Origin: a virus
Reading direction: 5' to 3' (one strand)
IMG/VR virus record: IMGVR_UViG_3300045988_164636
Location: 32,001 to 96,000 of that record
Length of the DNA stretch: 64,000 bases
Shown here: piece by piece, positions 1,282 through 55,743 of the stretch
Position numbering within the stretch: the first letter of the stretch is position 1
Layout of the letters: each line of letters starts with the position of its first letter
Notes under the pieces: model-generated
Seen by the model: the letters and a program-made list of their open reading frames with translations, nothing else
What the model was told of the DNA's origin: nothing
The model's database searches: none
Translations under genes and position numbers: made by a program

Positions 1282-1357
1282 TGCGGGATGATGCAGAGGT
1301 AACATGTTAGCTTAGTAAAACTAATTACAGAGGGTTCAAGTCCTTCTCCCGCCACCA
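1282..1357 (+). tRNA. atypical tRNA-like gene, anticodon undetermined
   Basis: Exactly 76 nt. It has a 6-bp acceptor stem with a 1:72 mismatch, a T arm (gaggg/ttcaagt/ccttc), discriminator A and an encoded CCA. The D stem has only 3 bp. The anticodon arm folds as gttag/ctaat closing a 10-nt loop (cttagtaaaa), or as a longer hairpin with a tetraloop. No canonical 7-nt anticodon loop can be drawn. Confidence 0.45.
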
Positions 1358-1526
1358 GTGGATTTTCATATTCCGCTTTCTACGAGCGATAGCTTGCATG
1401 AGAAGTAGACGGGACCGGTCATCAATGATTGCAAGGTTGAGAACTTCCGCTTCAATTCCTTTAAATAGTTATATCTCCTGCGGGAATATGACAGCCTTGA
1501 AATTGCGATAGAGAGGTAGGTTTTAT
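1358..1526 (+). other. structured non-coding spacer containing a tRNA 5'-half-like segment (1400-1440)
   Basis: gagaagt at 1400-1406 is complementary to the 3' acceptor strand tcttctc at 1586-1592. The hairpin tcaat/gttga at 1422-1440 carries gattgcaag in its loop, echoing ttgattgcaatg at 1551-1562. No plausible ORF is present. Confidence 0.3.
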
Positions 1527-1596
1527 GGGAAGATAGCATAAAAAATGCACTTGATTGCAATGAGGGATATTGGTTGAAATCCAATTCTTCTCACCA
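1527..1596 (+). tRNA. atypical short tRNA-like gene (possible UGC or GCA anticodon)
   Basis: 7-bp acceptor stem gggaaga/tcttctc, U8, a perfect 4-bp D stem gcat/atgc with an all-A 5-nt D loop (no GG), and a T arm attgg/ttgaaat/ccaat (G at position 56). Discriminator A and CCA are present. Only 19 nt are available for the anticodon arm plus variable loop. The best fold is a 4-bp stem with loop attgcaa. Confidence 0.4.
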
Positions 1597-1600
1597 ATAT

Positions 1601-1676
1601 GGAGATGTAGCTCAGATGGTAGAGCAACGGGCTTTTAATCCGTGAGCCAAGGGTTCGAACCCCTTCATCTTCACCA
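1601..1676 (+). tRNA. tRNA-Lys (anticodon UUU)
   Basis: Full cloverleaf: ggagatg/catcttc acceptor, tagctcagatggtagagc D arm, acggg-cttttaa-tccgt anticodon arm, gggttcgaacccc T arm, and encoded CCA. Confidence 0.9.
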
Positions 1677-2102
1677 GCCGCAGTTTCTTATATAATTAAT
1701 CTGAGGGACTAAATTAAAATTGATTATATAGAGAGAATAAACATGGATTTAGTAGATAAACTACCACCGATTGATTAATTCAAGTATGTGGCTCGTGGCT
1801 TAAACTCTCTACAAAAAATAAGGCAAAGTAATCTACAATATGGTATTATCTGTACCAAGGTCTTAACCTCGAGACCTTATAAATAAAGAAGGAGATAATT
1901 GCTCTACTCGTAGTCTCATTAGCTTTAAAAGCAACAGAACGAGGACTAACTAAGTGATTCATGAGTCACTGGTTAGGTTCAGTAGTAGATTTAGCCTGTA
2001 TCGGCTTGGTGTACGAGAAATTGCGTCATAGACGTGGTTTCTGAGGCACGCTGGAGAATTTAGACATCCAGAGGAAGTAGATCCTACTACTGAATTAAAT
2101 AT
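1677..2102 (+). ncRNA. approximately 425-nt structured non-coding spacer between tRNA-Lys and tRNA-Glu (candidate large ncRNA)
   Basis: No ORF. Long-range helix ttcagtagtag (~1978-1988) pairs with ctactactgaa (~2083-2093). Local hairpins include aaggtct...agacctt (~1857-1878), ctcgt...acgag and ctaac..gttag around a near-palindrome gtgattcatgagtcac. Confidence 0.35.
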
Positions 2103-2179
2103 GGCACCATCTTCTAATAAGGTCAGGAAACCGGTCTTTCACATCGGTAATATGGGTTCAAATCCCGTTGGTGTCACCA
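2103..2179 (+). tRNA. tRNA-Glu (anticodon UUC)
   Basis: Acceptor ggcacca/tggtgtc, anticodon arm ccggt-ctttcac-atcgg, T arm atggg-ttcaaat-cccgt, discriminator A and CCA. Confidence 0.8.
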
Positions 2180-2184
2180 AATTT

Positions 2185-2263
2185 ACGTCATTAGCTCAGC
2201 TGGATTAGTAGCAACCGCCTTCTAAGCGGTAGGTCATAGGTTCGAATCCTATATGGCGTGCCA
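2185..2263 (+). tRNA. tRNA-Arg (anticodon UCU)
   Basis: Acceptor acgtcat/atggcgt, D arm tagctcagctggattagtagc, anticodon arm accgc-cttctaa-gcggt, T arm atagg-ttcgaat-cctat, and CCA. Confidence 0.88.
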
Positions 2264-2303
2264 ATCAAAAGAATTTTAATAATTATGGTTATTGATTCTG
2301 TTT

Positions 2304-2379
2304 ACCGGTATAGCTTAGTCGGTAAAGCGTCGGACTGTTAATCCGTAGACCGTAGGTTCAAGTCCTACTACCGGTGCCA
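2304..2379 (+). tRNA. tRNA-Asn (anticodon GUU)
   Basis: Acceptor accggta/taccggt, D arm gctt-agtcggta-aagc, anticodon loop ctgttaa, T arm gtagg-ttcaagt-cctac, and CCA. Confidence 0.85.
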
Positions 2380-2560
2380 ATGTCGTAGTTTGTATGTTTA
2401 CAGCGACTTTAAATAAATTGATTAGACATTCTATCAGGCTCATGTTGTTAGCACCTTTTGTGAAATTAGCTAATCTAAGTTAGCCGCCATCCTGATAAAA
2501 ATAAAAACTTTGCGAACAAAAGAGTGTAAGCGGATAATGCTTAGACATTTCCGTGTATTA

Positions 2561-2636
2561 GCTGGAATAGCATAATTGGTGATGCAACGCTCTTGTAAAG
2601 CGGAGACTGTAGGTTCGAGTCCCACTTCCAGCACCA
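2561..2636 (+). tRNA. tRNA-Thr (anticodon UGU)
   Basis: Acceptor gctggaa/ttccagc, D arm gcat-aattggtg-atgc, anticodon loop cttgtaa, T arm gtagg-ttcgagt-cccac, and CCA. Confidence 0.85.
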
Positions 2637-2641
2637 TTTAT

Positions 2642-2715
2642 GTGGATATAGTTCAATGGTAGAATGCTAGCCTTCCAAGCTAGATATGCGAGCTCAATTC
2701 TCGTTATCCACTCCA
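2642..2715 (+). tRNA. tRNA-Gly (anticodon UCC)
   Basis: Acceptor gtggata/tatccac, anticodon arm ctagc-cttccaa-gctag, T arm gcgag-ctcaatt-ctcgt (unusual T loop), and CCA. Confidence 0.82.
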
Positions 2716-2918
2716 TCAAGAACACCTCTTTCACTCTAAAAAGTTAAATTCTTGGAATTAATGATCAAACAACATAAAATCCGATGTTTTGTATTGGTAG
2801 TTGAAAAATAAAAAGGAATAATATTAGCAACAATATTATTATACTTATATTTTTTGAGTGCCATAGTTTTAGGTTAATAGAGTGGAGAATAAAAGGTTGC
2901 TATTTTATTCTCCGATAT

Positions 2919-2992
2919 TGCACAGTCGCCAAGTGGCAAAAGGCAGTAGACCTTGACTCTACCATTCGCTAGTTCGAATCTAGCCTGTGCAG
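2919..2992 (+). tRNA. tRNA-Gln (anticodon UUG), with C at position 33
   Basis: Acceptor tgcacag/ctgtgca, D arm gcc-...-ggc, anticodon arm gtaga-ccttgac-tctac, T arm gctag-ttcgaat-ctagc. No CCA is encoded directly. The loop reads c-c-TTG-a-c, so the usual U33 is a C. Confidence 0.7.
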
Positions 2993-3624: not shown

Positions 3625-5073
3625 ATGACAATTACTGAACAACTTACAGATATGTTATCAGAAAAAAGAACTGAAAATGGAGCAATCTCATGGAGTACAA
3701 CACAGTCTAGAATTATAGATATGTTTGCTTCAATAGGCGGCAAAAGAAATGCTTCAACAGAAGAAATAGAAAATATATATCTTGCCGCACGAACAGAAAA
3801 TGCGGATTTAGCTGACAAGATGATTTTCTATTGTAGAGATATTCTTGGGGGACTGGGAGAAAGACGTATTGGAAGAATATTGCTTCATAAATTAGCTTGT
3901 ATTGACCCTGATAAAATGAAAAGAAATTTTAACTTAATTGCAAAGTATGGTAGATGGGATGACTTTTATTGTTTAGAATATACTCCCTGTGAAATGGATA
4001 TGTGGGAATATTTATATGGACAACTTATATTCGATCATATGGAATATACGTTACGCACTGGAAATGTTTCATTACTTGCTAAATGGCTTAAGAGTGAAAA
4101 TGCTTCTTCTGCGGAAGCTAAAAGACTTGCCCGCAAGTTTTGTCAGATAAATAATATCTCTTATAAAAAGTATAGAAAGATACTTTCAGAATTAAGAAAA
4201 TATATAAATGTAATTGAAACTAAAATATCTAAAAATGAATGGAATACAATTGAATATTCAACTATTCCTTCAATAGCTCATCATAAATATTCAAGTGCTT
4301 TTGCAAAACATGATAGAGAAAGATATACAGAATATCTTGAAAAATTAAAATCAAATAGTCCAGAAGTAAAGATAAATGCAAAGACGATAACTCCCGCAAC
4401 AATTATTTCAAATATATCTAATCCAGCGGCAGAAGCTCAGTGGAATGCCTTACCTAACTATTTTACTGGTAACAAGAATATCATTTGTTGTGCAGATGTT
4501 AGTGGTTCAATGAGGTATAGTGGCTGTTGTTCGGGAACTCAACCAATAGATAATTCAATAGGATTAGCAATGTATTGTGCAATGCACAATAATGGAATTT
4601 ATAAAAATAAATATTTGACTTTTACTGATAAACCTACATTAATTGAATATGATTCAAAAAGAGATTTAGCATATAACGTTGGACGAGCAAAAACTCATAT
4701 AGGATATAACACTAATCTCGATGGAATGTTTGAAGCAATTTATGAGGCGGCATCCGCAGCACACAGGTCACCAGAAGGTCTTGTAATTGTTTCAGATATG
4801 GAAATAGATAGCTTTTTAGCAGAAAATAAAACAGATGGCATAGTTGATAAGTGGTCAAAAAAGTTCCATGCTGCTGAGCTTGCATTTTTCCCCGTTGTAT
4901 TTTGGAATGTTGATGCTCGTAATGACTTTACTATATTAAATAAAATTAAAAATCCTTATGTTAAATATGCAAGTGGCAATTCTCCTACAATATTTAGCAA
5001 TCTTGAAACAATTATGGATAAATCTCAGTATGATGCAATAGTAGAAATATTAAATAAGTATGAAGTGGTTTAA
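3625..5073 (+). CDS. DUF2828-type (TROVE/Ro60-related) protein with a C-terminal vWA domain
   Basis: Start chosen at ATG 3625 after RBS gaaggag. The N-terminal TENGAISWSTTQSRIIDMF matches my memory of the TENG..(Y/F).S(T/S)g...LD.F DUF2828 signature. The vWA MIDAS motif ADVSGSM is present. Confidence 0.55.
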   Translation: MTITEQLTDMLSEKRTENGAISWSTTQSRIIDMFASIGGKRNASTEEIENIYLAARTENADLADKMIFYCRDILGGLGERRIGRILLHKLACIDPDKMKRNFNLIAKYGRWDDFYCLEYTPCEMDMWEYLYGQLIFDHMEYTLRTGNVSLLAKWLKSENASSAEAKRLARKFCQINNISYKKYRKILSELRKYINVIETKISKNEWNTIEYSTIPSIAHHKYSSAFAKHDRERYTEYLEKLKSNSPEVKINAKTITPATIISNISNPAAEAQWNALPNYFTGNKNIICCADVSGSMRYSGCCSGTQPIDNSIGLAMYCAMHNNGIYKNKYLTFTDKPTLIEYDSKRDLAYNVGRAKTHIGYNTNLDGMFEAIYEAASAAHRSPEGLVIVSDMEIDSFLAENKTDGIVDKWSKKFHAAELAFFPVVFWNVDARNDFTILNKIKNPYVKYASGNSPTIFSNLETIMDKSQYDAIVEILNKYEVV

Positions 5074-5091: not shown

Positions 5092-5171
5092 TATGTATGG
5101 GTAAAATAAAAACATCTAATTGCTGTATTTTTTAATTATTATTGTAATATAAAGAAAGGAGCTAATGTCTT

Positions 5172-5333
5172 ATGATTAATATAATCGGACAAGGAGATAA
5201 AACAACAACTTATTTAATGTCTTATGTTGCTGATACAGAAGCAGATATTACTGCGGAAGAACCTTCTGATAATATAGCAATTGGTAGCACTTGCTTAGTT
5301 ATAGAAACTTCTAATGTATATATTGCTTGGTAG
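5172..5333 (+). CDS. small hypothetical protein (53 aa), possibly fibre-associated
   Basis: Too short for the ORF track. It reads ATG 5172 to TAG 5331-5333 (MINIIGQGDKTTTYLMSYVADTEADITAEEPSDNIAIGSTCLVIETSNVYIAW), with aaaggagc 9 nt upstream. Confidence 0.35.
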   Translation: MINIIGQGDKTTTYLMSYVADTEADITAEEPSDNIAIGSTCLVIETSNVYIAW

Positions 5334-10728: not shown

Positions 10729-11379
10729 TTAAATATTGTACCAAAGTAAAGATACTCGGCCTGGAATTGTTTCGCATCCAATTCTTATTTTTTGATTTTC
10801 ATCAAAAGAATAAGTTACTACATTATTATTAAAAGACATAATATTTCCAGATGTATTTATTTGAGGAACGTCTAAGCTTATATACCCCATATAACTATTT
10901 CCTTCAATTGTAATCATTGTTAATATAATTACTCTATTTTTATTTCCATCTGCTGGATAAGGAAATTCTACATATTTTGGGTCTTCAGTTGTTGTCCATA
11001 TTCCATTATAATTTAGAGTATTTAATCCTAATGTTCCATTTATTTTTGGTAGAGTTAAAGTAACTGGTTGAGTTAAATCATTTGGACTACCAAACTGAAC
11101 ATAATTTGTATTATTTCCATATATACGGAAAATACCTTTTCTATGTTCATTTCCAGATAAGCTATTTCCTATTGCTAAATAATTTATTGAAGGGCTAGAA
11201 ATATTATAAGCTAAACCTTTGTGTATATAACGGTTATCTTTTTCTTTATCACTTATTATTGGATACACCCATCCACCATTATCACTAAATTGATCAATTG
11301 ATAAAATTTTTGTTTTATCATCAACATATTTTTTATTAACAATATCTTCATCTTTTTCAATAGGAGCAATTAATTTCAT
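10729..11379 (-). CDS. hypothetical structural protein
   Basis: 216-aa ORF with RBS aaggaggaat, lying in the fibre/baseplate gene run. Confidence 0.55.
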   Translation of the reverse strand: MKLIAPIEKDEDIVNKKYVDDKTKILSIDQFSDNGGWVYPIISDKEKDNRYIHKGLAYNISSPSINYLAIGNSLSGNEHRKGIFRIYGNNTNYVQFGSPNDLTQPVTLTLPKINGTLGLNTLNYNGIWTTTEDPKYVEFPYPADGNKNRVIILTMITIEGNSYMGYISLDVPQINTSGNIMSFNNNVVTYSFDENQKIRIGCETIPGRVSLLWYNI

Positions 11380-22830: not shown

Positions 22831-24342
22831 ATGAAAAATAATATTAATTATTCTGCTGATTCAGTCCAGACGTTGATTGGACTGGAGCCTTTTAGAAAAT
22901 CTCCCGGTATGTATATTGGTGATACTGGAGAATATGGACTTCATCATATAGTTAAAGAGATTATTAATAATTCGGTAGATGAAGCTTTAAATGCCAATTG
23001 TACACATATTAATATAACATTGTTAAAAGATGGCGGAGTTCAGATTGAAGATGATGGACGAGGTTTCCCGCATGGAATGTTAGACGATACATTTTCTATT
23101 TTAGGAGGATGTTTCGGAAAGGAACATACCGGAGGAAAGTTTAACAATAATGGTGAATCAGGATATAATACTTCTGGTGGTATGCATGGTATAGGATGTA
23201 AATGTGCTGCAGCTCTTGGTATTAAAACTATAGCTATTTCGCATAGAGATGGTATTGAAGAAATAGTTGAATTTTCAAGAGGTAAAATGATTAAGCAGAT
23301 AACTGATAATAAATGTGATTCTAATTTGCATGGAACTTTAGTTATTTGGTATCCAGATCCAGAAATATTTAAGACAACAATTACATTCAATAGAGAAAAG
23401 ATTGAAAAAGAATTCTGTCAAGAATACAGTTTTTTAAATAGCGGATTATATTTTACCATTAAAGATGAGAGAACAAATTATTATAAAGAATATTATTCAA
23501 AAAATGGTATTGAAGATTACTTAAATTATTTAAATAAAGATAAGACTTATATTTTACATCCAGTGTGTTTTTCTGCGGAAGAAGGAAATTATAGTATTGA
23601 ACTTGGAATTGCTTATAATACGGAATATTCTAATTCAATAAGATTATATACTAATAGTATCCCTCAAACAAAAGGAACTCACTTAACTGGATTTAAAACA
23701 GCTTGGACTTCCGCAATTAATAAGTTTGCAAAAGAAAATAAATGGTTAAAAGCAAATGATAGTAATTTATCTGGTGATGATTTATTAGAAGGTCAGCTTT
23801 TGATAATAAACTTTAAAATGGTTGACCCTATTTTTGAAGGACAGACAAAAGAAAATTTAACCTCGGCGGAAGGTAGAACTTATACTCAGAAATTGATTTC
23901 TTCTTCTTTTGAAGAAATATTCAATAGCCGCAAAAACGAAATTAAAACAGTAGTTGATAAGGCAACAAGTGCAAGAAAAGCAAGAGATGCCGCAAAAAAG
24001 GCAAGAGAAAGAATAAGAGAAGGAAATAAAAAAGGATTAAAGGCAAAAATGGCAATCAGTAAAAAATTTGTTGATTGCATATCTAAAAATCCTGCGGAAA
24101 GAAATCTTCTCTTGGTTGAAGGAAATAGTGCGGCAAGTAGTGCAATTGAAGCAAGAAACGCAAAGACTGATTGTATTTATATGTTAAGAGGTAAAGTTGT
24201 AAGTCCGCTAAAAACTCCAATTGATAAACTTTTAGCTAATCAAGAAATTTCAGATATAGTTAAGGTAATTGGAGCTGGATTTGGTAACGACTTCGATGTG
24301 AATAAGATGAACTTTGATAAAATCGTTATAACCTCGGATGCT
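22831..24342 (+). CDS. gyrB: type IIA topoisomerase subunit B (GyrB/ParE-like), exon 1
   Basis: GHKL motifs EIINNSVDEAL, DDGRGFP, GGMHGIG, QTKENL and TOPRIM LLVEGNSAASSA. The conserved ITSDA|D.DG motif is cut after codon 504. The read-through (KRMKLAV*) is non-homologous. Confidence 0.85.
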
Positions 24343-25394
24343 AAGAGAATGAAATTGGCTGTGTAATACCTTTCAAGTTTACCACTTGGGTAACTTTATA
24401 TAAACCATCTTAGTCATTTTTGAATGAGATATAGATGGAATTAATATAAAGTTGCTAACGGGGAAACCTGACCAGATAGTGCTGAAGGTAATCCCGTGGC
24501 AAACATTATTTAATTCCTTATTATTATTAAAAGGAGAAAACATATAATGATAGGAATTTATAAAATCACTAACAAAAATACAGGTAAAGTTTATATCGGG
24601 CAATCTGATAATATTGAAAGAAGATTAAACGAACACAAACAAAAAAGAACTCAAACAATAGATAATTATATCAATGTTTTGGGTGTAGAAAATTTTGATT
24701 TTGAAATTTTGGAAGAATGTAAGAAAGAAGATTTAGATTTAAAAGAAAAGGAATATATTAAAAAATATAATTCTCAAATTAAAGGATATAATATTCAACA
24801 AGGTGGGTATAATAATTCTCAAGGTGAAGGTAATGGAAGAGCTCTTTTAACGGAGGCAGATGTTATCTTTATCAGAACAGCTTATCAAAATCATGAATCG
24901 CCAAAAGAAATTTTTGAAAAATATTTTTCAGACAAAATAACAAAAAATAATTTTCAAAGTGTTTGGCAAGGAAGAACTTGGATAAATATTATGCCAGAAG
25001 TTTATACTGAAGAAAATAAGAAATATTATATTTCTGGACAACAAAAAGCAAAATCTTCTCTTTCAAAAGAAGAAGTTCTCTTATATAGACAATATTATGT
25101 TGATCATACAAGAGAAGAAGTTTATCAAAAGATGTTATCTGATAAAGGCGATATTTTAAAAAAAGCTACTTTTTTTAAAATATTAATAGGTGATGTCAGA
25201 GATAATAGTATTTATAAAGAAATTCCAATTTATAAAAAATCAAAAAAGTGTTGGGAATTAAATAATGAGGCTGTATCGACTATCCCCGAATCGGGGGAGT
25301 AGAGCTATTATTGGTACATAGTTCGAAATGGTATCCTTAGTTTTATAGACTAAGTAAGAGATAGTCAGGGCTTATAGAAATATAAGAATAACCG
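24343..25394 (+). mobile_element. group I intron (1052 nt) carrying a GIY-YIG homing-endonuclease ORF
   Basis: The 5' exon ends in U (gct) and the intron ends in G (ccg). R/S-like core elements tatcgactat (25274-25283) and agatagtcag (25359-25368) can form P7. Joining the exons restores ITSDA-DSDGLDIELLLVTFFF. Confidence 0.8.
24547..25302 (+). CDS. GIY-YIG homing endonuclease (intron-encoded)
   Basis: GIYKITNKNTGKVYIGQSDNIERRLNEHK. RBS aaaggagaaaac. The C-terminus runs into the intron core. Confidence 0.85.
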   Translation: MIGIYKITNKNTGKVYIGQSDNIERRLNEHKQKRTQTIDNYINVLGVENFDFEILEECKKEDLDLKEKEYIKKYNSQIKGYNIQQGGYNNSQGEGNGRALLTEADVIFIRTAYQNHESPKEIFEKYFSDKITKNNFQSVWQGRTWINIMPEVYTEENKKYYISGQQKAKSSLSKEEVLLYRQYYVDHTREEVYQKMLSDKGDILKKATFFKILIGDVRDNSIYKEIPIYKKSKKCWELNNEAVSTIPESGE

Positions 25395-25806: not shown

Positions 25807-28176
25807 ATGAGTTTAATTACAGAAAATGATATATTAAATGAAGCAAAAGATTGTTTCTTAGGATACGCTTCAGAAGTTTTAACAGATAGAGCAATTCCTG
25901 CGGCGGAAGATGGATTACTTTCCGCACAAAGGAAAATTATATGGACTCTTGAAGATTATCTTAAAATGAATAGTAAGAGTAAGACAAAGAAGTGTCAAGC
26001 TATTGTTGGGTCAACTCTAGCTACATCATATTATCACGGTGATGCCGCTTGTTATGGAGTTTTATGCAAAATGTCTCAACCTTACCTTATGAGGTACCCC
26101 CTCATTGATGGACAAGGTTCATTAGGTACACAGGAGGATAATGACCTCGTTGCTTCTTCAAGATATACGGAGGCTAGACCCTCTAAATATTCTGACCTAA
26201 TGATGAAAGATTTTAAGAAAAAAGTTGTTCCATTAAAAGAAACATATAATGGAGAATTTATGGAGCCTGTAGTTCTTCCATCTTTATTTCCTAATGCTAT
26301 ATGTAATGGTAGACAGGCTATCGGCATCTCAATGTCTCATACATCGGCTCCACACAATCTCGGAGAAGTATGCGATGCTATCATAACTTATCTTAAACAA
26401 AATAAGTCTATAACTTTAGATGAACTGTTAGATATAATGCCCGGACCAGATTTCCCACTTCCTAATACTATTATAAATAAGAAGGACATTCGTACAGCTT
26501 ATGCAACAGGGCATTCCGCAGTTTCTCTTAAAATAAGAGGTCATTATGAAATTAAAGGTCAGAATTTAATTTTTACAACTATTCCATATAGAACTTATAG
26601 AAATAAGATAAAAGAACAAATTGAAAAGAATGTTGATGAATTAGATAAATATATTGATGATTTTGATGATGAATCTGCTCTTGGAGAAAATAAATTAGTA
26701 TTTAGATGTAAGAAGAATGTTGACCCAGAAGCAGTTGCACAAAAATTATTTGCATTAACAGATTTACAAACAACTTTATCTTACAATATGAACTTTATTG
26801 TAGATGGAACACCTAAAATGTGTTCAATGATAGATTTAATTAAATCTTATGTAAAGCATCAAGAAAATATTATAATTAAGATTGCGGAAGATGATAAAAG
26901 TAAAGCAGAATTAAAAAAGCATACTACAGAAGGGCTTATTATAATTTTAAATGATATTGACAATGCTATTCAGATAATAAAAAATTCAGAAAATAGGAAC
27001 ACCGCAAAAATTTCTTTAATGAATCATTATAAATTAACAGATGTTCAGGCGGATGCTGTTCTTGATATGAAGTTAGTAAAACTTACTAAATTAGATAAAG
27101 ATGAATTATTAAATTTATTAAAAGAATTAGAAGTTATAATTGCGGAATGTAATAAACTTATTTCTGATGAAGAATACAGAGCAAATCATTTAATTGAAAA
27201 AGTGCGGGAAATGAAAAGTAAATATGCAGACCCCCGCAGAACTATACTTACACAAATTGATGTATCAAAAGAAGAAAAAGAAGTTGCAGAAATTATACCT
27301 GAAGATTGTGTAGTTATTATTACAAGAAATGGTATGATAAAGAGGATTCCTTCACAATCATTTAAAGTACAAAAGAAAAATGGTAAGGGAGTAAAAAATG
27401 CGGAAGATACTTTATTAACTACTATATCAACTAATACTATTGATACTTTAATGCTTTTTACTGATAAAGGAAAGATGTATAGAGTTTCAATTAATGAGAT
27501 CCCAGAAGGAACAAACACTGGAAAAGGTAGTTTAATTAGTTCTATTGTATCAACAGAACAAGATGAAAAGGTTATTGCCGCAACATCCTTATACCATAAA
27601 AGTAAAGCTAAGTATGTTATCTTTATAACAAAAAATGGTATGATAAAGAAAACCGCCTTAAGTGAATATGAAGGTGGAAAAAAGAAAACTGGTATAGTGG
27701 CAATTAAATTTAAAGATAATGATACTCTTGCTAATGTTACTTTTGCGGAAGAAGAAGATTTTATTGTTATTACTAAAAATGGCATGGGCATAAGAATAGA
27801 AAGTAAGAGTATTTCTCCAATAGGTAGAGTATCTATGGGAGTGAAGGCAATTAAGCTCAATGATAATGATGAAGTTTTATGCGGACTTCCTATTCATAAA
27901 AATAGTGATAAATTAGCTCTTTTTACTATTGACGGATTAGGCAAAAAAATAGCCTTAAATGAACTTTATACACAAGGTAGAGGCGGAAAAGGTATCATCC
28001 TTTCGAAGGAACATCTTGCTGGAGCATTATTAATTGATAATAAAGATATTATATTAATTAATGGTAAGCCTAATTTAATATGTATAGCGGCAGAAGATAT
28101 ACCTGAATGTTCACGAATTGCCGCAGGCAATAAGATTATTAAAGGTAGTATAATTGAGTCTGTTGTTAAATTATAA
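25807..28176 (+). CDS. gyrA: type IIA topoisomerase subunit A (GyrA/ParC-like)
   Basis: AAEDGLLSAQRKIIW and the active-site region SSRYTEAR. The C-terminal beta-pinwheel-like repeats contain G.G. motifs. Confidence 0.85.
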   Translation: MSLITENDILNEAKDCFLGYASEVLTDRAIPAAEDGLLSAQRKIIWTLEDYLKMNSKSKTKKCQAIVGSTLATSYYHGDAACYGVLCKMSQPYLMRYPLIDGQGSLGTQEDNDLVASSRYTEARPSKYSDLMMKDFKKKVVPLKETYNGEFMEPVVLPSLFPNAICNGRQAIGISMSHTSAPHNLGEVCDAIITYLKQNKSITLDELLDIMPGPDFPLPNTIINKKDIRTAYATGHSAVSLKIRGHYEIKGQNLIFTTIPYRTYRNKIKEQIEKNVDELDKYIDDFDDESALGENKLVFRCKKNVDPEAVAQKLFALTDLQTTLSYNMNFIVDGTPKMCSMIDLIKSYVKHQENIIIKIAEDDKSKAELKKHTTEGLIIILNDIDNAIQIIKNSENRNTAKISLMNHYKLTDVQADAVLDMKLVKLTKLDKDELLNLLKELEVIIAECNKLISDEEYRANHLIEKVREMKSKYADPRRTILTQIDVSKEEKEVAEIIPEDCVVIITRNGMIKRIPSQSFKVQKKNGKGVKNAEDTLLTTISTNTIDTLMLFTDKGKMYRVSINEIPEGTNTGKGSLISSIVSTEQDEKVIAATSLYHKSKAKYVIFITKNGMIKKTALSEYEGGKKKTGIVAIKFKDNDTLANVTFAEEEDFIVITKNGMGIRIESKSISPIGRVSMGVKAIKLNDNDEVLCGLPIHKNSDKLALFTIDGLGKKIALNELYTQGRGGKGIILSKEHLAGALLIDNKDIILINGKPNLICIAAEDIPECSRIAAGNKIIKGSIIESVVKL

Positions 28177-50021: not shown

Positions 50022-50228
50022 ATGATTTTATATTCAACAGGTTGTCCTAAATGTAATGTGTTAAAAAAGAAAATGGCGGCAGTTGGGATCAACTATACTG
50101 AGATCAATGATCCCGCCGCAATAAAAGAAAAAGGAATTGTATTTGTTCCTGTTCTTGAAGTCAATGATAAACTCTACAACTTCAAAGAAGCTGTAGATTA
50201 TATAAATAATTTAAATAAGGGTGATTAA
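50022..50228 (+). CDS. nrdH: glutaredoxin-like protein (NrdH-like)
   Basis: 68 aa with a CPKC redox motif and a VPVLEV segment. Confidence 0.6.
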   Translation: MILYSTGCPKCNVLKKKMAAVGINYTEINDPAAIKEKGIVFVPVLEVNDKLYNFKEAVDYINNLNKGD

Positions 50229-51519
50229 ATTGAACAAAAAAATTAAATTAAGTAAAAACTTTACTACTGAATTTAATAAACTTACAGAAGAATTAGGAGA
50301 AGAATTTGAATTAATAAATGGTTTTCATGAAACACAGTTAAATGGAACTGATTTTATTGATAATTTTACCGCAGACAACAAACCTGTTGCGGACACTACG
50401 ATTGATGCTAATGCTTCTGTAACAACTAAAGACATTCAGTCTTTATTAAAAGAAAAAGATAAATCTGAAAATAAGTTGCTTGCTTTTAATAAAATATTTT
50501 ATGAATTACAGAAGGAATATGGAATAAAAATTGCTAGAGAGTGGCTGGCTATGGAAATGGGTCCATTCTTATATATGCATGATGCACCTACATCTACGTT
50601 CTTCAGCTATTGCTTTGCGTACGATTTATCTAGATTAGCAACGGAAGGTCTATTTTTTATTGACAACTACAATAACGAGCCTCCTAAACATCTCCAAACA
50701 TTCTTAGACGACGTCATAGAATATATATCCTACATGTCGAACAGATCATCTGGGGCAGTAGGAATACCCGATATTCTTATCTGGATGTTTTACTTCTGGA
50801 AGCATGATGTAGAACAGAATTATTATTTAGTATCGCCAGAATATTACTTAAAACAAGCTTTTCAAAAATTAATTTATAGATTAAATCAAAAGTTCTATAG
50901 AGATCAAACTCAAACAGTATTTTCAAATATGAGTATTTTTGACAGTCTTTATCTTGAAGCTTTATTTGGCGGAAGAGAATATCCTGATGGTACATTTGTT
51001 ATCGATTATCTTGATGATATTATGAAAGTTCAGAAAATGTTTATGGACACAGTATCAGAAATTAGAAGCCAGAATCTATTCACATATCCAGTCTTGACGT
51101 TTTCTTTAATCTACCGTAACGGTCATTTCGAAGATGAAGAGTTCGCTAGGTGGGCTAGCAATCATAACCGCAAGTGGAATGATTCAAATTTCTTTATTAG
51201 CGAAAATCCCGGAGCTTTATCCAATTGTTGCCGGCTCATTTCAGACACTACACAATTAGATCCATTTATTAATTCAATAGGTGGAACAGCTTTATCAGTT
51301 GGTTCTGTAAAAGTTTCAACAATTAATCTTGAAGCTATTGCGTTTGAATATCCTAATAATGAAGATAAATTTATTGAAAAATTAAATAGAGTGCAATATA
51401 TTGATATGTGTGCTTTAGACAGGGTAAGACATATTATTCAAAGAAACATAGAAAAGAAACTTCTTCCTAACTTTATTGAAGGCGGGGTTGAAATGGATAA
51501 ACTATTTAATACAGTAGGT
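50221..51519 (+). CDS. nrdD: anaerobic ribonucleoside-triphosphate reductase NrdD, exon 1
   Basis: The class III RNR body ends at ...KLFNTVG. The read-through gives SI*. The start (GTG 50221 or TTG 50230) is uncertain. Confidence 0.75.
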
Positions 51520-52808
51520 TCAATCTAAAGAGCCTTATATTACTTAACCAATTTAAAATATTGGGGTCACAAGGGTGGCTAACGGGGAAAGCTAAGTTAA
51601 AAATATGCCAATCCCGTGGGAGGTTATTAAAAATGAATAGACATAATCATAAGAAAAAAGATATTTATATTATAAAAAATGATATTAACAATAAGGTTTA
51701 TATAGGACAAACTGTTAACCCTAAACAAAGATGGGAACAATATTGCTCTTTAGTAAAACATAAACCGAATACCCAAGTTATTACTAAAGCAATGAAAAAA
51801 TATGGTATTGAACATTTTACTATGTCAATCTTAGAAAATGATGTTGTAAATTATGATGAGAGGGAAAAATATTGGATACAAAAATATAATAGTCTTGTTC
51901 CAAATGGCTATAATGTAGCTATCGGTGGAGATGGAATAGGAAGTGGAGTTAATAATCCAATAGCAAAAGTAAAAAGTGAAGATGTTTTAATGGAATTAAT
52001 TGATGAAATAATTCAAAATGTTTTGCCTTTTAAAATTTTAGCAAAAAAATATGATTTATCTGAGGGACAAATTTCAGAAATTAATAGGGGAAAGGCATAT
52101 TATAATTCAGAATTAAGCTATCCTCTGCGACAATCAAGATACACAGAAGAAAAAATTAAACAATTAACATATTCTTTAAAATATGAACTTGATAAAAGTT
52201 TAAAACAAATAGCGAAAGAATATGAGATTGATTTATCTTATCTTAATGACATCAACCAAGGCAGAGTTTGGTATAGGAGCTATATAAATTACCCTATAAG
52301 ATTAGGAAAAATGAAAAAAGCTGAAATTATTCATCCTCAAATAAAAGAATTATTAAAAAACTCAACTCTCTCTCAAAAAGAAATCGCAAAAAAATTCAAT
52401 ATAAGTCAAATGGTGGTTAGTGAAATTAATCAAGGGAAAAAAGGATATGATAAAAACATTGATTATCCTATTAGAAAAAATTATCAAAAGGAAAGAAAAG
52501 AAACTACTTTATCTCCAGACATAATTGATGAAATTTGCAATATCATATTAAATACCAATCTTTCATTAAAAGAAATTTCAAAAAAATACGAAGTTTCATA
52601 TGCTACTATTCAGAATATAAATAGTGGAAAAGTAATAAAATATCGCAATGAAAAAAAATATAAATATCCTTTAAGAGATAATAGAAAATAACTGCCTGTA
52701 TCGACTATTCGTGGATAACGAAGTAGGTAAAATACCAAAAGAGTAATAGCATTAACAAGGGTTAGTGTTAAAAGATAGTCAGTACCATTAGAAATAATGG
52801 ATAATATG
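51520..52808 (+). mobile_element. group I intron 1 in nrdD (1289 nt) with a GIY-YIG homing-endonuclease ORF
   Basis: The 5' exon ends in U (ggt) and the intron ends in G (atg). It shares gctaacggggaaa, aatcccgtgg, ctgtatcgactat and agatagtcag with the gyrB intron. Splicing restores NTVG-FLGLYEV (compare E. coli LGYIGIHE). Confidence 0.8.
51633..52691 (+). CDS. GIY-YIG homing endonuclease with four tandem HTH-like DNA-binding repeats
   Basis: IYIIKNDINNKVYIGQTVNPKQRWEQY. Four repeats fit the pattern L..IAKKY.(I/L)S...(I/V)S.IN.G......YP(L/I)R. ATG 51633 follows gggagg. Confidence 0.8.
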   Translation: MNRHNHKKKDIYIIKNDINNKVYIGQTVNPKQRWEQYCSLVKHKPNTQVITKAMKKYGIEHFTMSILENDVVNYDEREKYWIQKYNSLVPNGYNVAIGGDGIGSGVNNPIAKVKSEDVLMELIDEIIQNVLPFKILAKKYDLSEGQISEINRGKAYYNSELSYPLRQSRYTEEKIKQLTYSLKYELDKSLKQIAKEYEIDLSYLNDINQGRVWYRSYINYPIRLGKMKKAEIIHPQIKELLKNSTLSQKEIAKKFNISQMVVSEINQGKKGYDKNIDYPIRKNYQKERKETTLSPDIIDEICNIILNTNLSLKEISKKYEVSYATIQNINSGKVIKYRNEKKYKYPLRDNRK

Positions 52809-52988
52809 TTTTTAGGTTTATATGAAGTAATGGATATTTATGGGTATATTAATGAAGATGAATTTGGCTATAAGAGTTATTCAGATAAAGGTATAGCCTT
52901 TGCTCAAAAAATATTTGACGCATTAAATAAAAATAAAGAGGTTTTCTGCGCAGACCGAGATTATAAGATAAACCTCGAATCCGTCCCT
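52809..52988 (+). CDS. nrdD: NrdD exon 2 (60 codons)
   Basis: FLGLYEVMDIYGY...KINLESVP is in frame with both neighbouring exons. Its length matches the corresponding E. coli NrdD segment as I remember it. Confidence 0.7.
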
Positions 52989-54203
52989 AAAAAATCTGGG
53001 GCTAAATAAATTAAAACTTATTTAGAAAATTCTCTCTAATTGACTTGGAACGCCCCATCGGGGTGGACAGGGCGGAAGGAGTTTTTCCACCGTGAACGAC
53101 TAAATGAGAGAACACCTGAAAAAGGTGATGCGATAGTCTGAGCTCTACCATATAAAGAAAGTAGAGAATGAAATTTAACGATTTCATCGCCATACAATAA
53201 ATACCACTCATTTGAAGAGTATAAAAAGAAAGGAAAACTATGAAAAATATTATTAAAAATGCCAGTGGCAAGCCCATTGGAACGGTTGAATTGACAGCAA
53301 ACACAATAAAAATAATGAATGATACTAAACCCGTTTTAGAAATTCAAAATTCTAACTTAGCTCAACAAATTATAAATAAAGATAATAGCCCAGAAATTTT
53401 AAAGATACTATATGATAATTATTTTTTATCTGCCGGAGAAATTGCAGCTTTATATGAAGTTTGTTATTCTAATATGAACAAACAACTTAAATCAGTTAGT
53501 TTAGAAACAAGTGCTAAACAGGGACGAAGAAATAGATCCTACGGGAAACCTCAGTCCGAAGAATGCTTAAGAAAAAAATCTGAAACAATGAAAAGAAAAG
53601 TTGCTAATGGCGAATATACTCCTCCAAATTATGAAAGAACGCCTGAAATAAAAGAAAAGATTTCTCGTGGACTAAAAGAATATTATAAAAATCATCCTCA
53701 AGATCCAACTCCTCATATAAATAATTGGAAAAAAGGAGTTTATGATAATGTAGATTTTCATATAAGTATTGGTGGGAAAATGTTTTCTATAAAAAATCAA
53801 AAAACATATAATTTTAGAAGTTTATTAGAATTATATTATATGTTGTTACTCGAAGATTCAACAGAAGTAGAATTTTATGAATATGAGCCTATACATATTA
53901 ATTGTGAAAATGGACATATATATACACCAGATATTCTAATTAATAATACAACTTTAATAGAATTAAAGTCATACAAATATATTCATAGTAAAGACGAAAT
54001 TTTAAATTCCTTTAATTATAAAAAAGAACAGGCTGAAAAATATTGTAAAAATACAGAAATGCAATATAAAGTAGTATTTGATATTGATATTGATTTTGAT
54101 TCTTCTCGATATAAAAGAGAACTAAAAAATCATCCTGAAATTATTGAAAAATATCACATTATTTTCAATCAGCCAGAACGTATGGTCATAAAGTAACAGA
54201 TTG
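52989..54203 (+). mobile_element. group I intron 2 in nrdD (1215 nt) with a 3'-located endonuclease ORF
   Basis: The 5' exon ends in U (cct) and the intron ends in G (ttg). The core precedes the ORF (ccccatcgggg hairpin; acgactaaa / gcgatagtct P7-like pair). Splicing gives LESVP-GESAAVKLAAKD (compare E. coli YGTPSESL). Confidence 0.75.
53240..54196 (+). CDS. intron-encoded endonuclease: NUMOD3-like motifs plus a C-terminal PD-(D/E)xK-like domain
   Basis: GRRNRSYGKPQSEECLRKKSETMK resembles NUMOD3. YTPDILI...LIELK gives a candidate D...E.K nuclease motif. RBS is aaagaaaggaaaac. Confidence 0.55.
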   Translation: MKNIIKNASGKPIGTVELTANTIKIMNDTKPVLEIQNSNLAQQIINKDNSPEILKILYDNYFLSAGEIAALYEVCYSNMNKQLKSVSLETSAKQGRRNRSYGKPQSEECLRKKSETMKRKVANGEYTPPNYERTPEIKEKISRGLKEYYKNHPQDPTPHINNWKKGVYDNVDFHISIGGKMFSIKNQKTYNFRSLLELYYMLLLEDSTEVEFYEYEPIHINCENGHIYTPDILINNTTLIELKSYKYIHSKDEILNSFNYKKEQAEKYCKNTEMQYKVVFDIDIDFDSSRYKRELKNHPEIIEKYHIIFNQPERMVIK

Positions 54204-54674
54204 GGAGAGTCGGCTGCAGTCAAACTCGCGGCAAAAGATAGATTATACTATGCTCATCCTAAATGTCACGAAATTTTAAGTAATCAGTGGATACCATTAA
54301 CAGAAAAATGTACAATAGAGGAAAAAGCAAGATTATCAGGATTATTTGATAAACGTTGCGGAGGCGGAGTTATTGCACATATTAACATAGAAAGCGAGTT
54401 CCCAACAGAAGAATCAGCTTGGAATATGTTAAATTATTTAGCTTCACATAATGTTATTTATTTTGCTTTCAATAGCAGAATAAATGAGTGTGCAAATCAT
54501 CATGGCTTTGTTGGAACTAAAATTTGTCCAGAGTGCGGAGGAGAGGTTATAGATACTTATCAGAGAATCGTGGGTTATTTAGTACCTACAAGATCTTATT
54601 CTGCCGCCCGCAAAAAAGAATTCGGTAAAAGGCAATGGTATAATATAGGAAATATGATAGATACGATAGGTTAA
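54204..54674 (+). CDS. nrdD: NrdD exon 3 (zinc ribbon and glycyl-radical domain)
   Basis: CANHHG...CPECGG Zn site and the glycyl-radical motif QRIVGYL. Confidence 0.8.
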   Translation, partial: GESAAVKLAAKDRLYYAHPKCHEILSNQWIPLTEKCTIEEKARLSGLFDKRCGGGVIAHINIESEFPTEESAWNMLNYLASHNVIYFAFNSRINECANHHGFVGTKICPECGGEVIDTYQRIVGYLVPTRSYSAARKKEFGKRQWYNIGNMIDTIG

Positions 54675-54676
54675 AT

Positions 54677-55147
54677 ATGAAGATTAGACAATTAATTATC
54701 GGGGATTTTATCAATTATAAAAAACCAAGTATGGTAATCGCAATGCCATATTGTAGTTTCAAATGCGAAAAAGAGTGCGGAATAGCTTGCTGTCAAAACA
54801 GCGAGCTAGCCACTGCCCCTCTTATAGAAACAGATGTTCAAACATTAATAAAATATTTTGATAAATCGGATATTTGTCAGGTAGTTGTTTTTGGTGGTTT
54901 AGAACCTTTTGATAGTTATGATGATTTATTCATCTTTATTAAAGAATTTAGAAAAAATCATACTAATGATATAGTTATCTATACAGGATATTATAAAAAT
55001 GAAATAATTGATAAAATTGAACCTCTTAAAAAATATCAAAATATTATTATAAAATATGGGCGTTTTATTCCTAATGAAAAAGAAAAATTTGATTCTATTT
55101 TAGGAATAAAATTAGCAAGTCCTAATCAATATGCGGAGGTATTATGA
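54677..55147 (+). CDS. nrdG: anaerobic RNR activating enzyme NrdG (radical SAM)
   Basis: 156 aa, the same size as T4 NrdG. Cys cluster YCSFKCEKECGIACCQN. It lies directly downstream of nrdD. Confidence 0.65.
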   Translation: MKIRQLIIGDFINYKKPSMVIAMPYCSFKCEKECGIACCQNSELATAPLIETDVQTLIKYFDKSDICQVVVFGGLEPFDSYDDLFIFIKEFRKNHTNDIVIYTGYYKNEIIDKIEPLKKYQNIIIKYGRFIPNEKEKFDSILGIKLASPNQYAEVL

Positions 55148-55743
55148 AATATATTTTAACTGATGATGTTGAAGTAAAAACGGAAATATTAGAAGGATTA
55201 AAAAAGAATAAAAAACAATATGGAGAAAGATATTGTCCTTGCGTCAATCCTTCTGAATATAATGAAGATTACATTTGTCCTTGTAAGGATTTTAGAGAAA
55301 ATGTTAAAGGCGGAGAACCTTGTCATTGTGGTTTATATATAAAAGAAAAAACAGAAGAAGAAAAAACTCATATGAACTTAGGTTCAATATATGATTATAA
55401 TAAATCTGTTTATGACAACTTTAAACCTTTAGATAGGATAATGTTAAATTTGAATCAAAATTTAGTTGATCATTTTATTGAAGATACTAAAAATAAATAT
55501 TATATGCTTCTCAATAGAGAAAATGCAGACTATACTATTTTTACAGTCGATTATACCAGACCTGCAAAAAGAAAATCTGCCGCAAAAATTCTTATTGATG
55601 AATGTATCTATAATAGAGGTCAAGCTATTGATATAAATTTAACAGAAGATAAAACAGCTATTGAAATTTGGCTTCGTAATGCGGAAAATGAAAATTTATG
55701 TTATTATTTCTTTCCTTATGATGCCGCAATAATTGAGGTGTGA
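55144..55743 (+). CDS. ferredoxin-thioredoxin-reductase-catalytic-subunit-like Cys-motif domain fused to an unknown C-terminal domain
   Basis: The N-terminal ~70 aa carry CPC-x16-CPC-x13-CHC (CPCVNPSEYNEDYICPCKDFRENVKGGEPCHCGLY). The remaining ~125 aa were not recognised. Confidence 0.5.
   Translation: MKYILTDDVEVKTEILEGLKKNKKQYGERYCPCVNPSEYNEDYICPCKDFRENVKGGEPCHCGLYIKEKTEEEKTHMNLGSIYDYNKSVYDNFKPLDRIMLNLNQNLVDHFIEDTKNKYYMLLNRENADYTIFTVDYTRPAKRKSAAKILIDECIYNRGQAIDINLTEDKTAIEIWLRNAENENLCYYFFPYDAAIIEV

What the first reader, a model, noticed from the sequence alone, without database searches (positions are those of the whole stretch)
50221..54674. nrdD carries two group I introns with different endonuclease types, leaving a 60-codon middle exon
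NrdD is in three pieces: 50221-51519, 52809-52988 and 54204-54674. The joins NTVG-FLGLYEV and LESVP-GESAAV match the conserved E. coli segments (LGYIGIHE and YGTPSES, as I remember them). The middle exon has the expected length. Intron 1 (1289 nt) carries a GIY-YIG enzyme with four tandem HTH-like repeats. Intron 2 (1215 nt) has its ribozyme core first, then a NUMOD3 plus PD-(D/E)xK-like endonuclease ending 7 nt before the 3' splice site. T4 nrdD (sunY) has one intron. Two introns with unrelated endonucleases 180 nt apart suggest repeated independent invasion.
Basis: partly seen in the sequence, partly recalled or inferred. Interest (0 to 1): 0.65.

Follow-up and report, generated by a model that had tools for sequence, protein, structure and literature searches.

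The report
Two group I introns in phage nrdD

Summary
nrdD lies in three pieces: 50230-51519, 52809-52988 and 54204-54674. Joined, they give a 1941-nt CDS that aligns without gaps to an uninterrupted allele that is 99% identical at the protein level (L007). Intron 1 (51520-52808) is an IA2-type group I intron like T4 sunY, with a GIY-YIG plus four-HTH endonuclease gene in loop L6. Intron 2 (52989-54203) is a compact group I intron with no P7.1/P7.2. Its endonuclease gene (TnsA-like PD-(D/E)xK nuclease, NUMOD3 only borderline) sits in loop L9.2. Both RNA folds are backed by strong covariation in homologous introns from other phages, including exon-guide covariation in P1. The two introns occur independently in relatives: either one alone, both, or neither. 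Near-identical phages carry an intein or a different intron instead. Neither intron is at the T4 position (codon 180). The arrangement is not unique, because L009, L049 and L050 have the same pair and some relatives have four or five interruptions. Multiple introns in phage reductase genes are well documented. Modest new points: the TnsA-like endonuclease lineage is tied to one nrdD site, Rfam detects neither intron, and a third intron lies in the gyrB-like gene.

The parts
It ends ...NTVG with U at 51519.
   Evidence: Gapless alignment to intronless alleles P0001/L007 and to 4u3e. AAGGGTGA lies upstream of TTG.
51520..52808 (+). Intron 1, a 1289-nt IA2-type group I intron. Helices: P1 51516-51521/51530-51535; P3 51538-51545/52741-52748; two extra hairpins X 51548-51564 and Y 51566-51579; P4 51582-51587/51612-51617; P6 51618-51624/52691-52697; P7 52703-52707/52776-52780; P7.1 52708-52722; P7.2 52726-52736; P8 52750-52767; P9 (GAAA loop) 52785-52800; terminal G at 52808.
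   Evidence: Covariation test on 8 family members: 89.3% of cells paired against about 40% in slid controls, 38 of 66 pairs compensatory, 0 of 500 shuffles as high. Same element order as T4 sunY. Coordinates.
51633..52691 (+). Intron 1 ORF: GIY-YIG homing endonuclease (352 aa) with four HTH-like repeats, located in loop L6. Its Shine-Dalgarno sequence GGGAGG is the 5' strand of P6.
   Evidence: Pfam GIY-YIG E 2.1e-12. PHROG 7168 'homing endonuclease' E 1.2e-37. Repeats at residues 133-166, 190-223, 248-281 and 312-348.
52809..52988 (+). nrdD exon 2, 60 codons (FLGLYEV...LESVP), ending in U at 52988.
52989..54203 (+). Intron 2, a 1215-nt compact group I intron without P7.1/P7.2. Helices: P1 52985-52989/52997-53001; P2 53002-53025; P3 53030-53036/53106-53112; J3/4 53037-53043; P4 53044-53047/53068-53071; P5 53051-53065; P6 53072-53075/53090-53093; P7 53097-53102/53134-53138; P8 53113-53127; P9 53143-53166; P9.1 53168-53187; P9.2 53190-53195/54180-54185, which closes the ORF loop; conserved 3' tail to the terminal G at 54203.
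   Evidence: RNAalifold on 20 family cores recovers P3, P4, P6 and P8; 14 of 23 pairs are compensatory. P1, P10 and P9.2 covary across loci. P7 and its flanks match T4 sunY. Coordinates.
53240..54196 (+). Intron 2 ORF (318 aa): N-terminal beta/HTH region, basic NUMOD3-like linker and C-terminal TnsA-like PD-(D/E)xK nuclease (E197, D231, E241, K243). A putative site-specific homing endonuclease, located in loop L9.2.
   Evidence: Pfam TnsA-like_N 2e-4 in the window copy and 2.3e-7 in the L009 ortholog; NUMOD3 6.3e-4 in L009. Invariant motif in 25 homologs. AF2 model pLDDT 89. Foldseek top hits are TnsA with probability 1.0.
54204..54674 (+). nrdD exon 3 (156 codons plus stop), carrying the glycyl-radical and Zn-ribbon C-terminus (GESAAV...RIVGYL...).

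Best explanation
nrdD is transcribed as one pre-mRNA that contains two independent, self-splicing group I introns. Each ribozyme folds and binds guanosine in P7. It cleaves after the exon U that forms a G.U pair in P1 (U51519 and U52988). It then ligates the exons at its terminal G (G52808 and G54203). This restores an uninterrupted 646-codon nrdD mRNA. Each intron also carries a homing endonuclease gene in a peripheral loop. Intron 1 has a GIY-YIG/HTH enzyme in L6. Intron 2 has a TnsA-like PD-(D/E)xK enzyme in L9.2. During mixed infection the endonuclease is expected to cut the intronless nrdD allele near the insertion site. Repair from the intron-bearing copy then spreads the intron (homing). 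The two elements invaded and move independently of each other. What is shown: the exon structure, the RNA folds by covariation, the protein families, independent presence/absence, and purifying selection on the exons. What is inferred: actual splicing, endonuclease activity and specificity, and the homing mechanism.
For: The joins are exact against a 99%-identical intronless allele, with the same 1941-nt length and no gaps. U sits at -1 and G at the intron end for both introns. Every intron-bearing allele has U at -1, whereas intronless alleles vary at that synonymous position. Intron 1 family: 89.3% of cells paired, 38 of 66 pairs with compensatory change, 0 of 500 shuffles as high. Its P1 covaries between exon and guide: exon A to U is matched by guide U to A. 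Intron 2 family: P3, P4, P6 and P8 are recovered de novo and 14 of 23 pairs are compensatory. Exon-guide covariation in P1 (GUCCCU/GGGGC, GUGCCU/GGGCAC, AUCCCU/GGGGAU, AUUCCU/GGGAAU) and covariation in P9.2 are seen across loci. The P7, J7/3 and J8/7 sequences match the experimentally self-splicing T4 sunY intron. The exons differ from the intronless allele at 112 synonymous but only 6 nonsynonymous codons, so the interrupted gene still encodes a selected protein. In-frame stop codons follow each 5' splice site within 2 and 7 codons. Endonuclease families. The ORF2 family lies in the nrdD 493/494 intron in 10 of 10 fetched loci and in 3 of 3 contexts found by protein search alone. Independent mobility.
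Against: There is no RNA evidence for splicing here. Rfam's group I model (RF00028) gives no hit in the window even at E<=10 on the 3.1-kb region, and no hit at its gathering score in 10 related loci. P7 and P4 of intron 1, and P7 of intron 2, are invariant, so covariation says nothing about them. Intron 1 has two hairpins between the P3 5' strand and J3/4 that I could not match to a textbook IA2 scheme. The NUMOD3 call for ORF2 is below Pfam's threshold. Endonuclease activity is untested, and either gene could be a decaying copy, although both ORFs are full length and keep their catalytic motifs.
Confidence: 0.9

Rival explanations
1. Gene in pieces. The insertions are endonuclease cassettes that split nrdD into three separately translated polypeptides, which assemble after translation without RNA splicing, as reported for Aeromonas phage Aeh1 nrdA split by mobE.
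For: An in-frame ATG at 52797 lies 12 nt upstream of exon 2, and a TTG at 54201 precedes exon 3. Split but functional phage reductases are documented (PMC3653736).
Against: Both insertions carry conserved, covarying ribozyme cores with P1 and P10 pairing to the exons. Selection on exon-guide pairing has no purpose without splicing. An ORF-less 243-nt version of intron 2 exists at the same site (L017), which a free-standing endonuclease cassette model cannot explain. A 60-residue middle fragment cut inside conserved motifs is unlikely to assemble.
Confidence: 0.03
2. One or both introns are splicing-defective relics, so nrdD in this phage is a pseudogene.
For: Splicing is untested. The window copy of intron 2 has G instead of the near-invariant A just after P7' (GUCUGAGC against GUCUGAAC).
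Against: All helices are intact in the window copies. The exons show 112 synonymous against 6 nonsynonymous differences and no frameshift or stop. Both endonuclease ORFs are full length with catalytic residues. Other family members also vary at the position after P7'.
Confidence: 0.06
3. The interruptions are inteins or group II introns rather than group I introns.
For: Inteins do occur in close alleles: L008/P0002 at residue 131/132, and phage c-st near residues 331-337.
Against: The reading frame is broken by stop codons right after each 5' junction, and the frame changes across each insertion. Neither ORF has an intein splicing domain, a reverse transcriptase or a domain V-like element. The RNA core is of the group I type.
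Confidence: 0.01

Closest known systems
T4 nrdD (sunY) intron with I-TevII
   Same: The host gene family is the same (class III reductase large subunit). Intron 1 shares the IA2 layout: P7, P7.1, P7.2, P3', P8, J8/7 AAGAUA, P7', a GNRA-capped P9 and a GIY-YIG endonuclease. Intron 2 shares the 'core first, ORF near the 3' end' layout and near-identical P7 flanks (AACGACUA...GAUAGUCUGAAC).
   Different: The T4 intron lies in codon 180 of 605 (AYE|YEVN). The T4 equivalents of the window's sites (GYIGIHE, STPAEN) are uninterrupted. T4 NrdD belongs to a distant subclass; that it uses formate is from my own knowledge. Intron 1 keeps its ORF in L6, not in the 3' region. Intron 2 lacks P7.1/P7.2 and encodes a PD-(D/E)xK enzyme, not a GIY-YIG enzyme.
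Staphylococcus phage Twort nrdE (two group I introns), Brochothrix phage A9 nrdE (three introns plus an intein), and SPbeta bnrdE/bnrdF
   Same: Several independent group I introns and inteins sit in one phage reductase gene, inserted at conserved motifs, and some carry homing endonuclease genes (PMC3653736).
   Different: Those are class Ib genes (nrdE/nrdF), with different introns and mostly HNH endonucleases.
Jug (jumbo gut) phage nrdD split into up to four fragments
   Same: nrdD is fragmented by group I introns, endonuclease genes and intein-like elements, and metatranscriptome reads support splicing (PMC12880540). PD-(D/E)xK endonucleases (PDDEXK_5) are among those counted.
   Different: A different phage group (Bacteroides/Phocaeicola hosts). 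Most of their introns are about 206 nt and lack ORFs. Their endonuclease family is PDDEXK_5, not TnsA-like.
I-Ssp6803I and I-Bth0305I (PD-(D/E)xK-fold homing endonucleases)
   Same: A restriction-endonuclease-like fold recruited as a group I intron homing endonuclease (PMC3424549).
   Different: ORF2 matches the TnsA/endonuclease I clade (PF08722/PF05367; Foldseek TnsA probability 1.0). It does not match PF11645, and it matches the Vsr-like I-Bth0305I only weakly (rank 23, E 1.7).

Membership tests
Group I intron (both insertions) | The 5' exon ends in U, which forms a G.U wobble with the internal guide sequence in P1. | tested here: met
   U51519 and U52988. The P1 helices covary with exon sequence across homologs. 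All intron-bearing alleles have U at -1.
Group I intron (both insertions) | The intron ends in a terminal guanosine. | tested here: met
   G52808 and G54203, conserved in all homologs.
Group I intron (both insertions) | Conserved core helices P3-P9 in canonical order, with the P3/P7 pseudoknot. | tested here: met
   Intron 1: (38 of 66 pairs compensatory). Intron 2: (14 of 23 pairs compensatory). P7 is invariant in both, so it is supported only by complementarity and by identity to T4 sunY.
Group I intron (both insertions) | Match to the curated Rfam model RF00028. | tested here: not met
   No hit at the gathering score in the window or in 10 related loci, and none at E<=10 on window 51300-54400. 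This is a detection aid, not a defining property; the long ORF inserts and phage-type cores are the likely reason.
Group I intron (both insertions) | Guanosine-dependent self-splicing that yields ligated exons. | not testable with these tools
   Needs in vitro transcription and splicing, or RNA-seq.
Subgroup IA2 (intron 1) | P7.1 and P7.2 hairpins between P7 and P3'. | tested here: met
   P7.1 at 52708-52722 (100% paired; 3 of 5 pairs compensatory) and the outer pairs of P7.2. Same order as T4 sunY. The extra hairpins X and Y between P3 and J3/4 are not part of the scheme I know.
GIY-YIG homing endonuclease (ORF1) | GIY-YIG catalytic domain with the conserved Arg, Glu and Asn, followed by modular DNA-binding repeats. 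| tested here: met
   Pfam PF01541 scores 47.6 bits against a cutoff of 22.6. The motifs IYI...VYIGQT...R...E...N are visible in the sequence. There are four HTH repeats. PHROG homing endonuclease families match.
PD-(D/E)xK nuclease, TnsA/endonuclease I clade (ORF2) | E...PD...(D/E)xK catalytic signature on a restriction-endonuclease-like fold. | tested here: met
   E197, P230-D231 and E241-x-K243 are invariant in 25 homologs. The AF2 model has pLDDT 89. The top four Foldseek hits are TnsA with probability 1.0. The window copy is below Pfam's cutoff (22.2 against 26.5 bits), whereas the L009 ortholog is above it (31.7 bits).
NUMOD3-containing endonuclease (ORF2) | Match to the NUMOD3 DNA-binding motif (PF07460). 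| tested here: inconclusive
   The window copy has no hit even at E<=10. The L009 ortholog scores 20.1 bits against a cutoff of 20.4. A few family members carry precomputed PF07460 hits.
Homing endonuclease (both ORFs) | Site-specific cleavage of the intronless allele, and intron homing. | not testable with these tools
   Only indirect evidence exists: strict site association, intron polymorphism among phages that are about 94-96% identical, and intron 1 being more conserved than its exons.

The most novel reading that the evidence does not exclude
The intron 2 protein represents an undescribed lineage of homing endonucleases. It would be a TnsA/endonuclease-I-like PD-(D/E)xK nuclease fused to an N-terminal DNA-binding region, dedicated to one site (ESVP|GE) of class III reductase genes. 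It rides in loop L9.2 of a widespread compact group I intron that current Rfam models do not detect. That would make it a third independent recruitment of the restriction-endonuclease fold for homing, after I-Ssp6803I and I-Bth0305I.
Probability: 0.45. Interest if true: 0.45.

Novelty: new member of a known kind. Interest (0 to 1): 0.3.

Why it matters
For annotation, nrdD in this phage group should be called as one spliced gene. Gene callers report it as three fragments plus two 'hypothetical' ORFs, and Rfam does not flag the introns. For biology, the locus is a compact natural experiment in selfish-element turnover. Phages about 94-96% identical in this region carry no element, an intein, an HNH intron, or the two introns described here. 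More distant relatives stack up to five elements in the same gene. The TnsA-like endonuclease family (over 130 homologs, always at one nrdD site in the cases checked) is a candidate new source of long-target, site-specific nucleases. None of this changes what is known about how group I introns or homing work.

Tried and rejected
- Rfam, at the gathering score and at E<=10 on the region, gave no group I hit. The only weak hits (L31 leader, snoRNA, U6atac and similar) are chance.
- Megablast of the whole locus against GenBank phages gave no match. The closest cultured-phage NrdD is Clostridium phage c-st at 39%.
- I tested whether either intron sits at the T4 sunY position. Neither does. T4's intron is in codon 180. 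A third site used in relatives (SSG|AVG, residues 178/179) lies about 11 codons downstream of the T4-equivalent position.
- The HMM alignment of T4 NrdD to this family is reliable only in the C-terminal half, so the GYIGIHE equivalence rests on motif inspection.
- I tried to fit hairpins X and Y of intron 1 into P2/P2.1.
- MAFFT misaligns the variable hairpins (P5 and P9 of the intron 2 family; Y, P7.2 and P8 of distant intron 1 relatives), so the pair counts are conservative.
- I considered and rejected intein, group II intron and gene-in-pieces readings (see the rival explanations).


Full report
**1. Observation.** ORF listing and direct reading of 51400-54300 show three NrdD-coding pieces separated by 1289 and 1215 nt. 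Concatenating 50221-51519, 52809-52988 and 54204-54674 gives a 649-residue protein. It matches Pfam NRDD end to end (E 2.7e-83). It also aligns to the Thermotoga maritima NrdD structures 4u3e/4coi (E about 1e-137) with no gap at either join.

The decisive test came from the protein database. P0001 is an uninterrupted 646-aa NrdD that is 99% identical, and its alignment shows no residue missing or duplicated at NTVG|FLGLYEV or LESVP|GESAAV. Its gene (L007) is 1941 nt, exactly the length of the spliced window CDS. The two align without gaps, with 121 mismatches. Intron 2's boundaries are unambiguous. Intron 1's could slide by one base, but only 51520-52808 gives a terminal G.

The homologs start at the codon equivalent to TTG 50230, which is preceded by AAGGGTGA.

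**2. Intron 1 (51520-52808).** Rfam gives nothing, so the fold was tested by comparison with homologs. Homologous introns sit at the same codon (433/434) in several loci:

- L009: 92.6% nt identity to the window's intron.
- L006: 82% nt identity.
- L011 and L013: their NrdDs are only about 45-56% identical to the window's.

Paralogous members sit at other nrdD sites and in the window's own gyrB-like gene.

On an alignment of eight ORF-deleted members, the hand-derived structure pairs in 89.3% of cells, against about 40% when the partners are slid. 38 of 66 pairs show changes on both sides, and no shuffle out of 500 reaches any observed measure. The structure tested was P1, P3, two extra hairpins X and Y, P4, P5, P6, P7, P7.1, P7.2, P8 and P9.

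P1 covaries between exon and guide sequence: exon GUA to GUU is matched by guide U to A. The element order P7, P7.1, P7.2, P3', P8, J8/7 (AAGAUA), P7', GNRA-capped P9 matches the T4 sunY intron read from the T4 record. Intron 1 is therefore an IA2-type group I intron.

The ORF (51633-52691) lies in L6. Its Shine-Dalgarno sequence GGGAGG is the 5' strand of P6, and the P6 3' strand follows the stop codon directly. Ribozyme folding and endonuclease translation should therefore compete; this is an inference, and RBS sequestration by RNA structure is described for the T4 intron endonucleases (PMC2988022). The protein is a GIY-YIG enzyme (Pfam E 2.1e-12; PHROG 'homing endonuclease' E 1.2e-37) with four tandem HTH-like repeats.

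**3. Intron 2 (52989-54203).** A gapped pattern of its invariant core found 33 viral contigs. Most of those carry the core at exactly nrdD codon 493/494, in NrdDs 27-80% identical to the window's. On 20 cores, RNAalifold recovers P3, P4, P6/P6a and P8 de novo, with 14 of 23 pairs compensatory. Only the two loop-proximal P8 pairs have more than one broken or gapped sequence.

P7, J7/3 (AAU) and J8/7 are invariant and nearly identical to T4 sunY. P1 covaries with the exon: GUCCCU/GGGGC, GUGCCU/GGGCAC, AUCCCU/GGGGAU and AUUCCU/GGGAAU. The third pair of a short P10 also covaries. There is no P7.1 or P7.2, and I did not assign a subgroup.

The last roughly 22 nt (GGUCAUAAAAGUAACAGAWUG) are conserved even in the ORF-less 243-nt copy in L017. 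A helix P9.2 closes the ORF loop. It reads CCAUAC/GUAUGG in the window, CCAAAU/AUUUGG in L009, L033 and L045, and forms a plain hairpin CCGAA/UUCGG in L017. The endonuclease gene therefore sits in L9.2, and its last five codons (RMVIK) plus stop overlap the P9.2 3' strand and the 3' tail.

**4. The intron 2 protein.**

- The window copy gives sub-threshold Pfam hits to Tn7_TnsA-like_N (2e-4) and Phage_endo_I (2.9e-4).
- The L009 ortholog passes the TnsA-like cutoff (31.7 bits) and nearly passes NUMOD3 (20.1 against 20.4 bits).
- A protein search found 133 relatives, nearly all full length.
- In 25 diverse relatives the motif FRSLLE...PD...ExK is invariant.
- An AlphaFold model (pLDDT 89) has TnsA as its top four Foldseek PDB hits (probability 1.0). 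I-Bth0305I appears only at rank 23.

The PD-(D/E)xK call is thus confirmed and refined to the TnsA/endonuclease I clade. NUMOD3 remains borderline.

All ten relatives in the fetched loci lie in the 493/494 intron. Because those loci were found through the intron core, I also looked up three distant homologs found by protein search alone. All three lie between an N-terminal NrdD fragment of about 493-502 aa and a C-terminal fragment of about 143-149 aa.

**5. Independence and mobility.** Four phages that are about 94-96% identical to one another across this neighbourhood carry four different nrdD states:

- the window: introns at 433/434 and 493/494;
- L005: an HNH-encoding intron at 291/292;
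- L008: an intein at 131/132;
- L007: nothing.

Among more distant relatives the two introns occur alone, together or not at all. Intron 1 is 92.6% identical between the window and L009, whose exons are about 75% identical. The first 45 nt of exon 2 are 93% identical, which may be a co-conversion tract or a target-site constraint. Intron 2 is only 63.5% identical between the same two phages.

The exons are under purifying selection, with 112 synonymous against 6 nonsynonymous codon differences from L007. The base at -1 is U in every intron-bearing allele but varies in intronless ones.

**6. Comparison with the known.** T4 nrdD has one intron, in codon 180. Neither window site corresponds to it. 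Multiple group I introns and inteins in phage reductase genes are well documented:

- Twort nrdE has two introns.
- Brochothrix A9 nrdE has three introns plus an intein.
- SPbeta is another example.
- nrdD was the most frequently split reductase gene in a survey of 128 phage genomes that carry RNR genes (PMC3653736).
- Jug phages have nrdD in up to four fragments, with RNA-seq support for splicing (PMC12880540).

The very same pair of introns recurs in L009, L049 and L050, and L015, L030, L033 and L044 have four or five interruptions. The finding is a new member of a known kind.

The least-charted element is the TnsA-like endonuclease. A survey of the PD-(D/E)xK superfamily lists homing endonucleases only in the Vsr-like and I-Ssp6803I clades, and lists TnsA only as a transposase (PMC3424549).

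**7. Limits.** Splicing and endonuclease activity are inferred, not shown. Invariant helices (P4 and P7) cannot be tested by covariation. The naming of hairpins X and Y, and the subgroup of intron 2, remain open.

Noticed in passing
window 24343-25394 (+): A third group I intron of the intron 1 (IA2-type, GIY-YIG) family interrupts a GyrB/topoisomerase II B-like gene inside the Toprim motif (...VITSDA|DSDGLDIELLL...). The 5' exon ends in U at 24342 and the intron ends in G at 25394. The GIY-YIG ORF is 24547-25302, and its 3' end overlaps P7 and P7.1. Exon 2 runs to 25793 and is followed by a GyrA-like gene at 25807-28176.
   Followed up: partly
window 51548-51579, and the same position in L006, L009, L011, L013, L015 and window 24.4 kb: All members of the intron 1 family have two covarying hairpins (X and Y; Y carries an AAGG loop like P8) between the P3 5' strand and J3/4. 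The T4 sunY intron has none there. I could not match them to a named peripheral element.
   Followed up: partly
window 50022-50228, 54677-55147 and 55144-55743: nrdD is flanked by an NrdH/glutaredoxin-like redoxin, NrdG, and a protein with a ferredoxin-thioredoxin reductase catalytic-chain domain (FeThRed_B, E 1.8e-15). Clostridium phage c-st has the same module. Together with the close match to T. maritima NrdD, this suggests a thiol-dependent rather than formate-dependent class III reductase.
   Followed up: no
L005 2977-4000; L008 4388-5566; L001 (phage c-st) about 3973-4941: Other selfish elements occupy the same gene. L005 is a 99%-identical allele with an HNH-encoding intron at residue 291/292. 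L008 is a 99%-identical allele with a 393-aa intein at 131/132. Phage c-st has an intein near the NCCRL active-site loop.
   Followed up: partly
L014 about 10830-11090 (-); L043 about 5142-5294 (-): Relatives of the intron 2 core also occur outside nrdD. L014 has an ORF-less copy inside a capsid-like gene. In L043 an ORF appears to be inserted right after P3', in the P8 region, instead of in L9.2.
   Followed up: no
window 1282-2992 (+): A cluster of nine tRNA genes (Rfam tRNA hits).
   Followed up: no
window 52809-52853 against L009 and L006: The first 45 nt of exon 2 are 93% identical between phages whose exons are otherwise about 70-75% identical. This may be a co-conversion tract or the recognition site of the GIY-YIG enzyme.
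   Followed up: partly
L018 268-340 (+): A RAGATH-18 RNA hit (75.9 bits) lies in a related viral contig near its nrdD.
   Followed up: no
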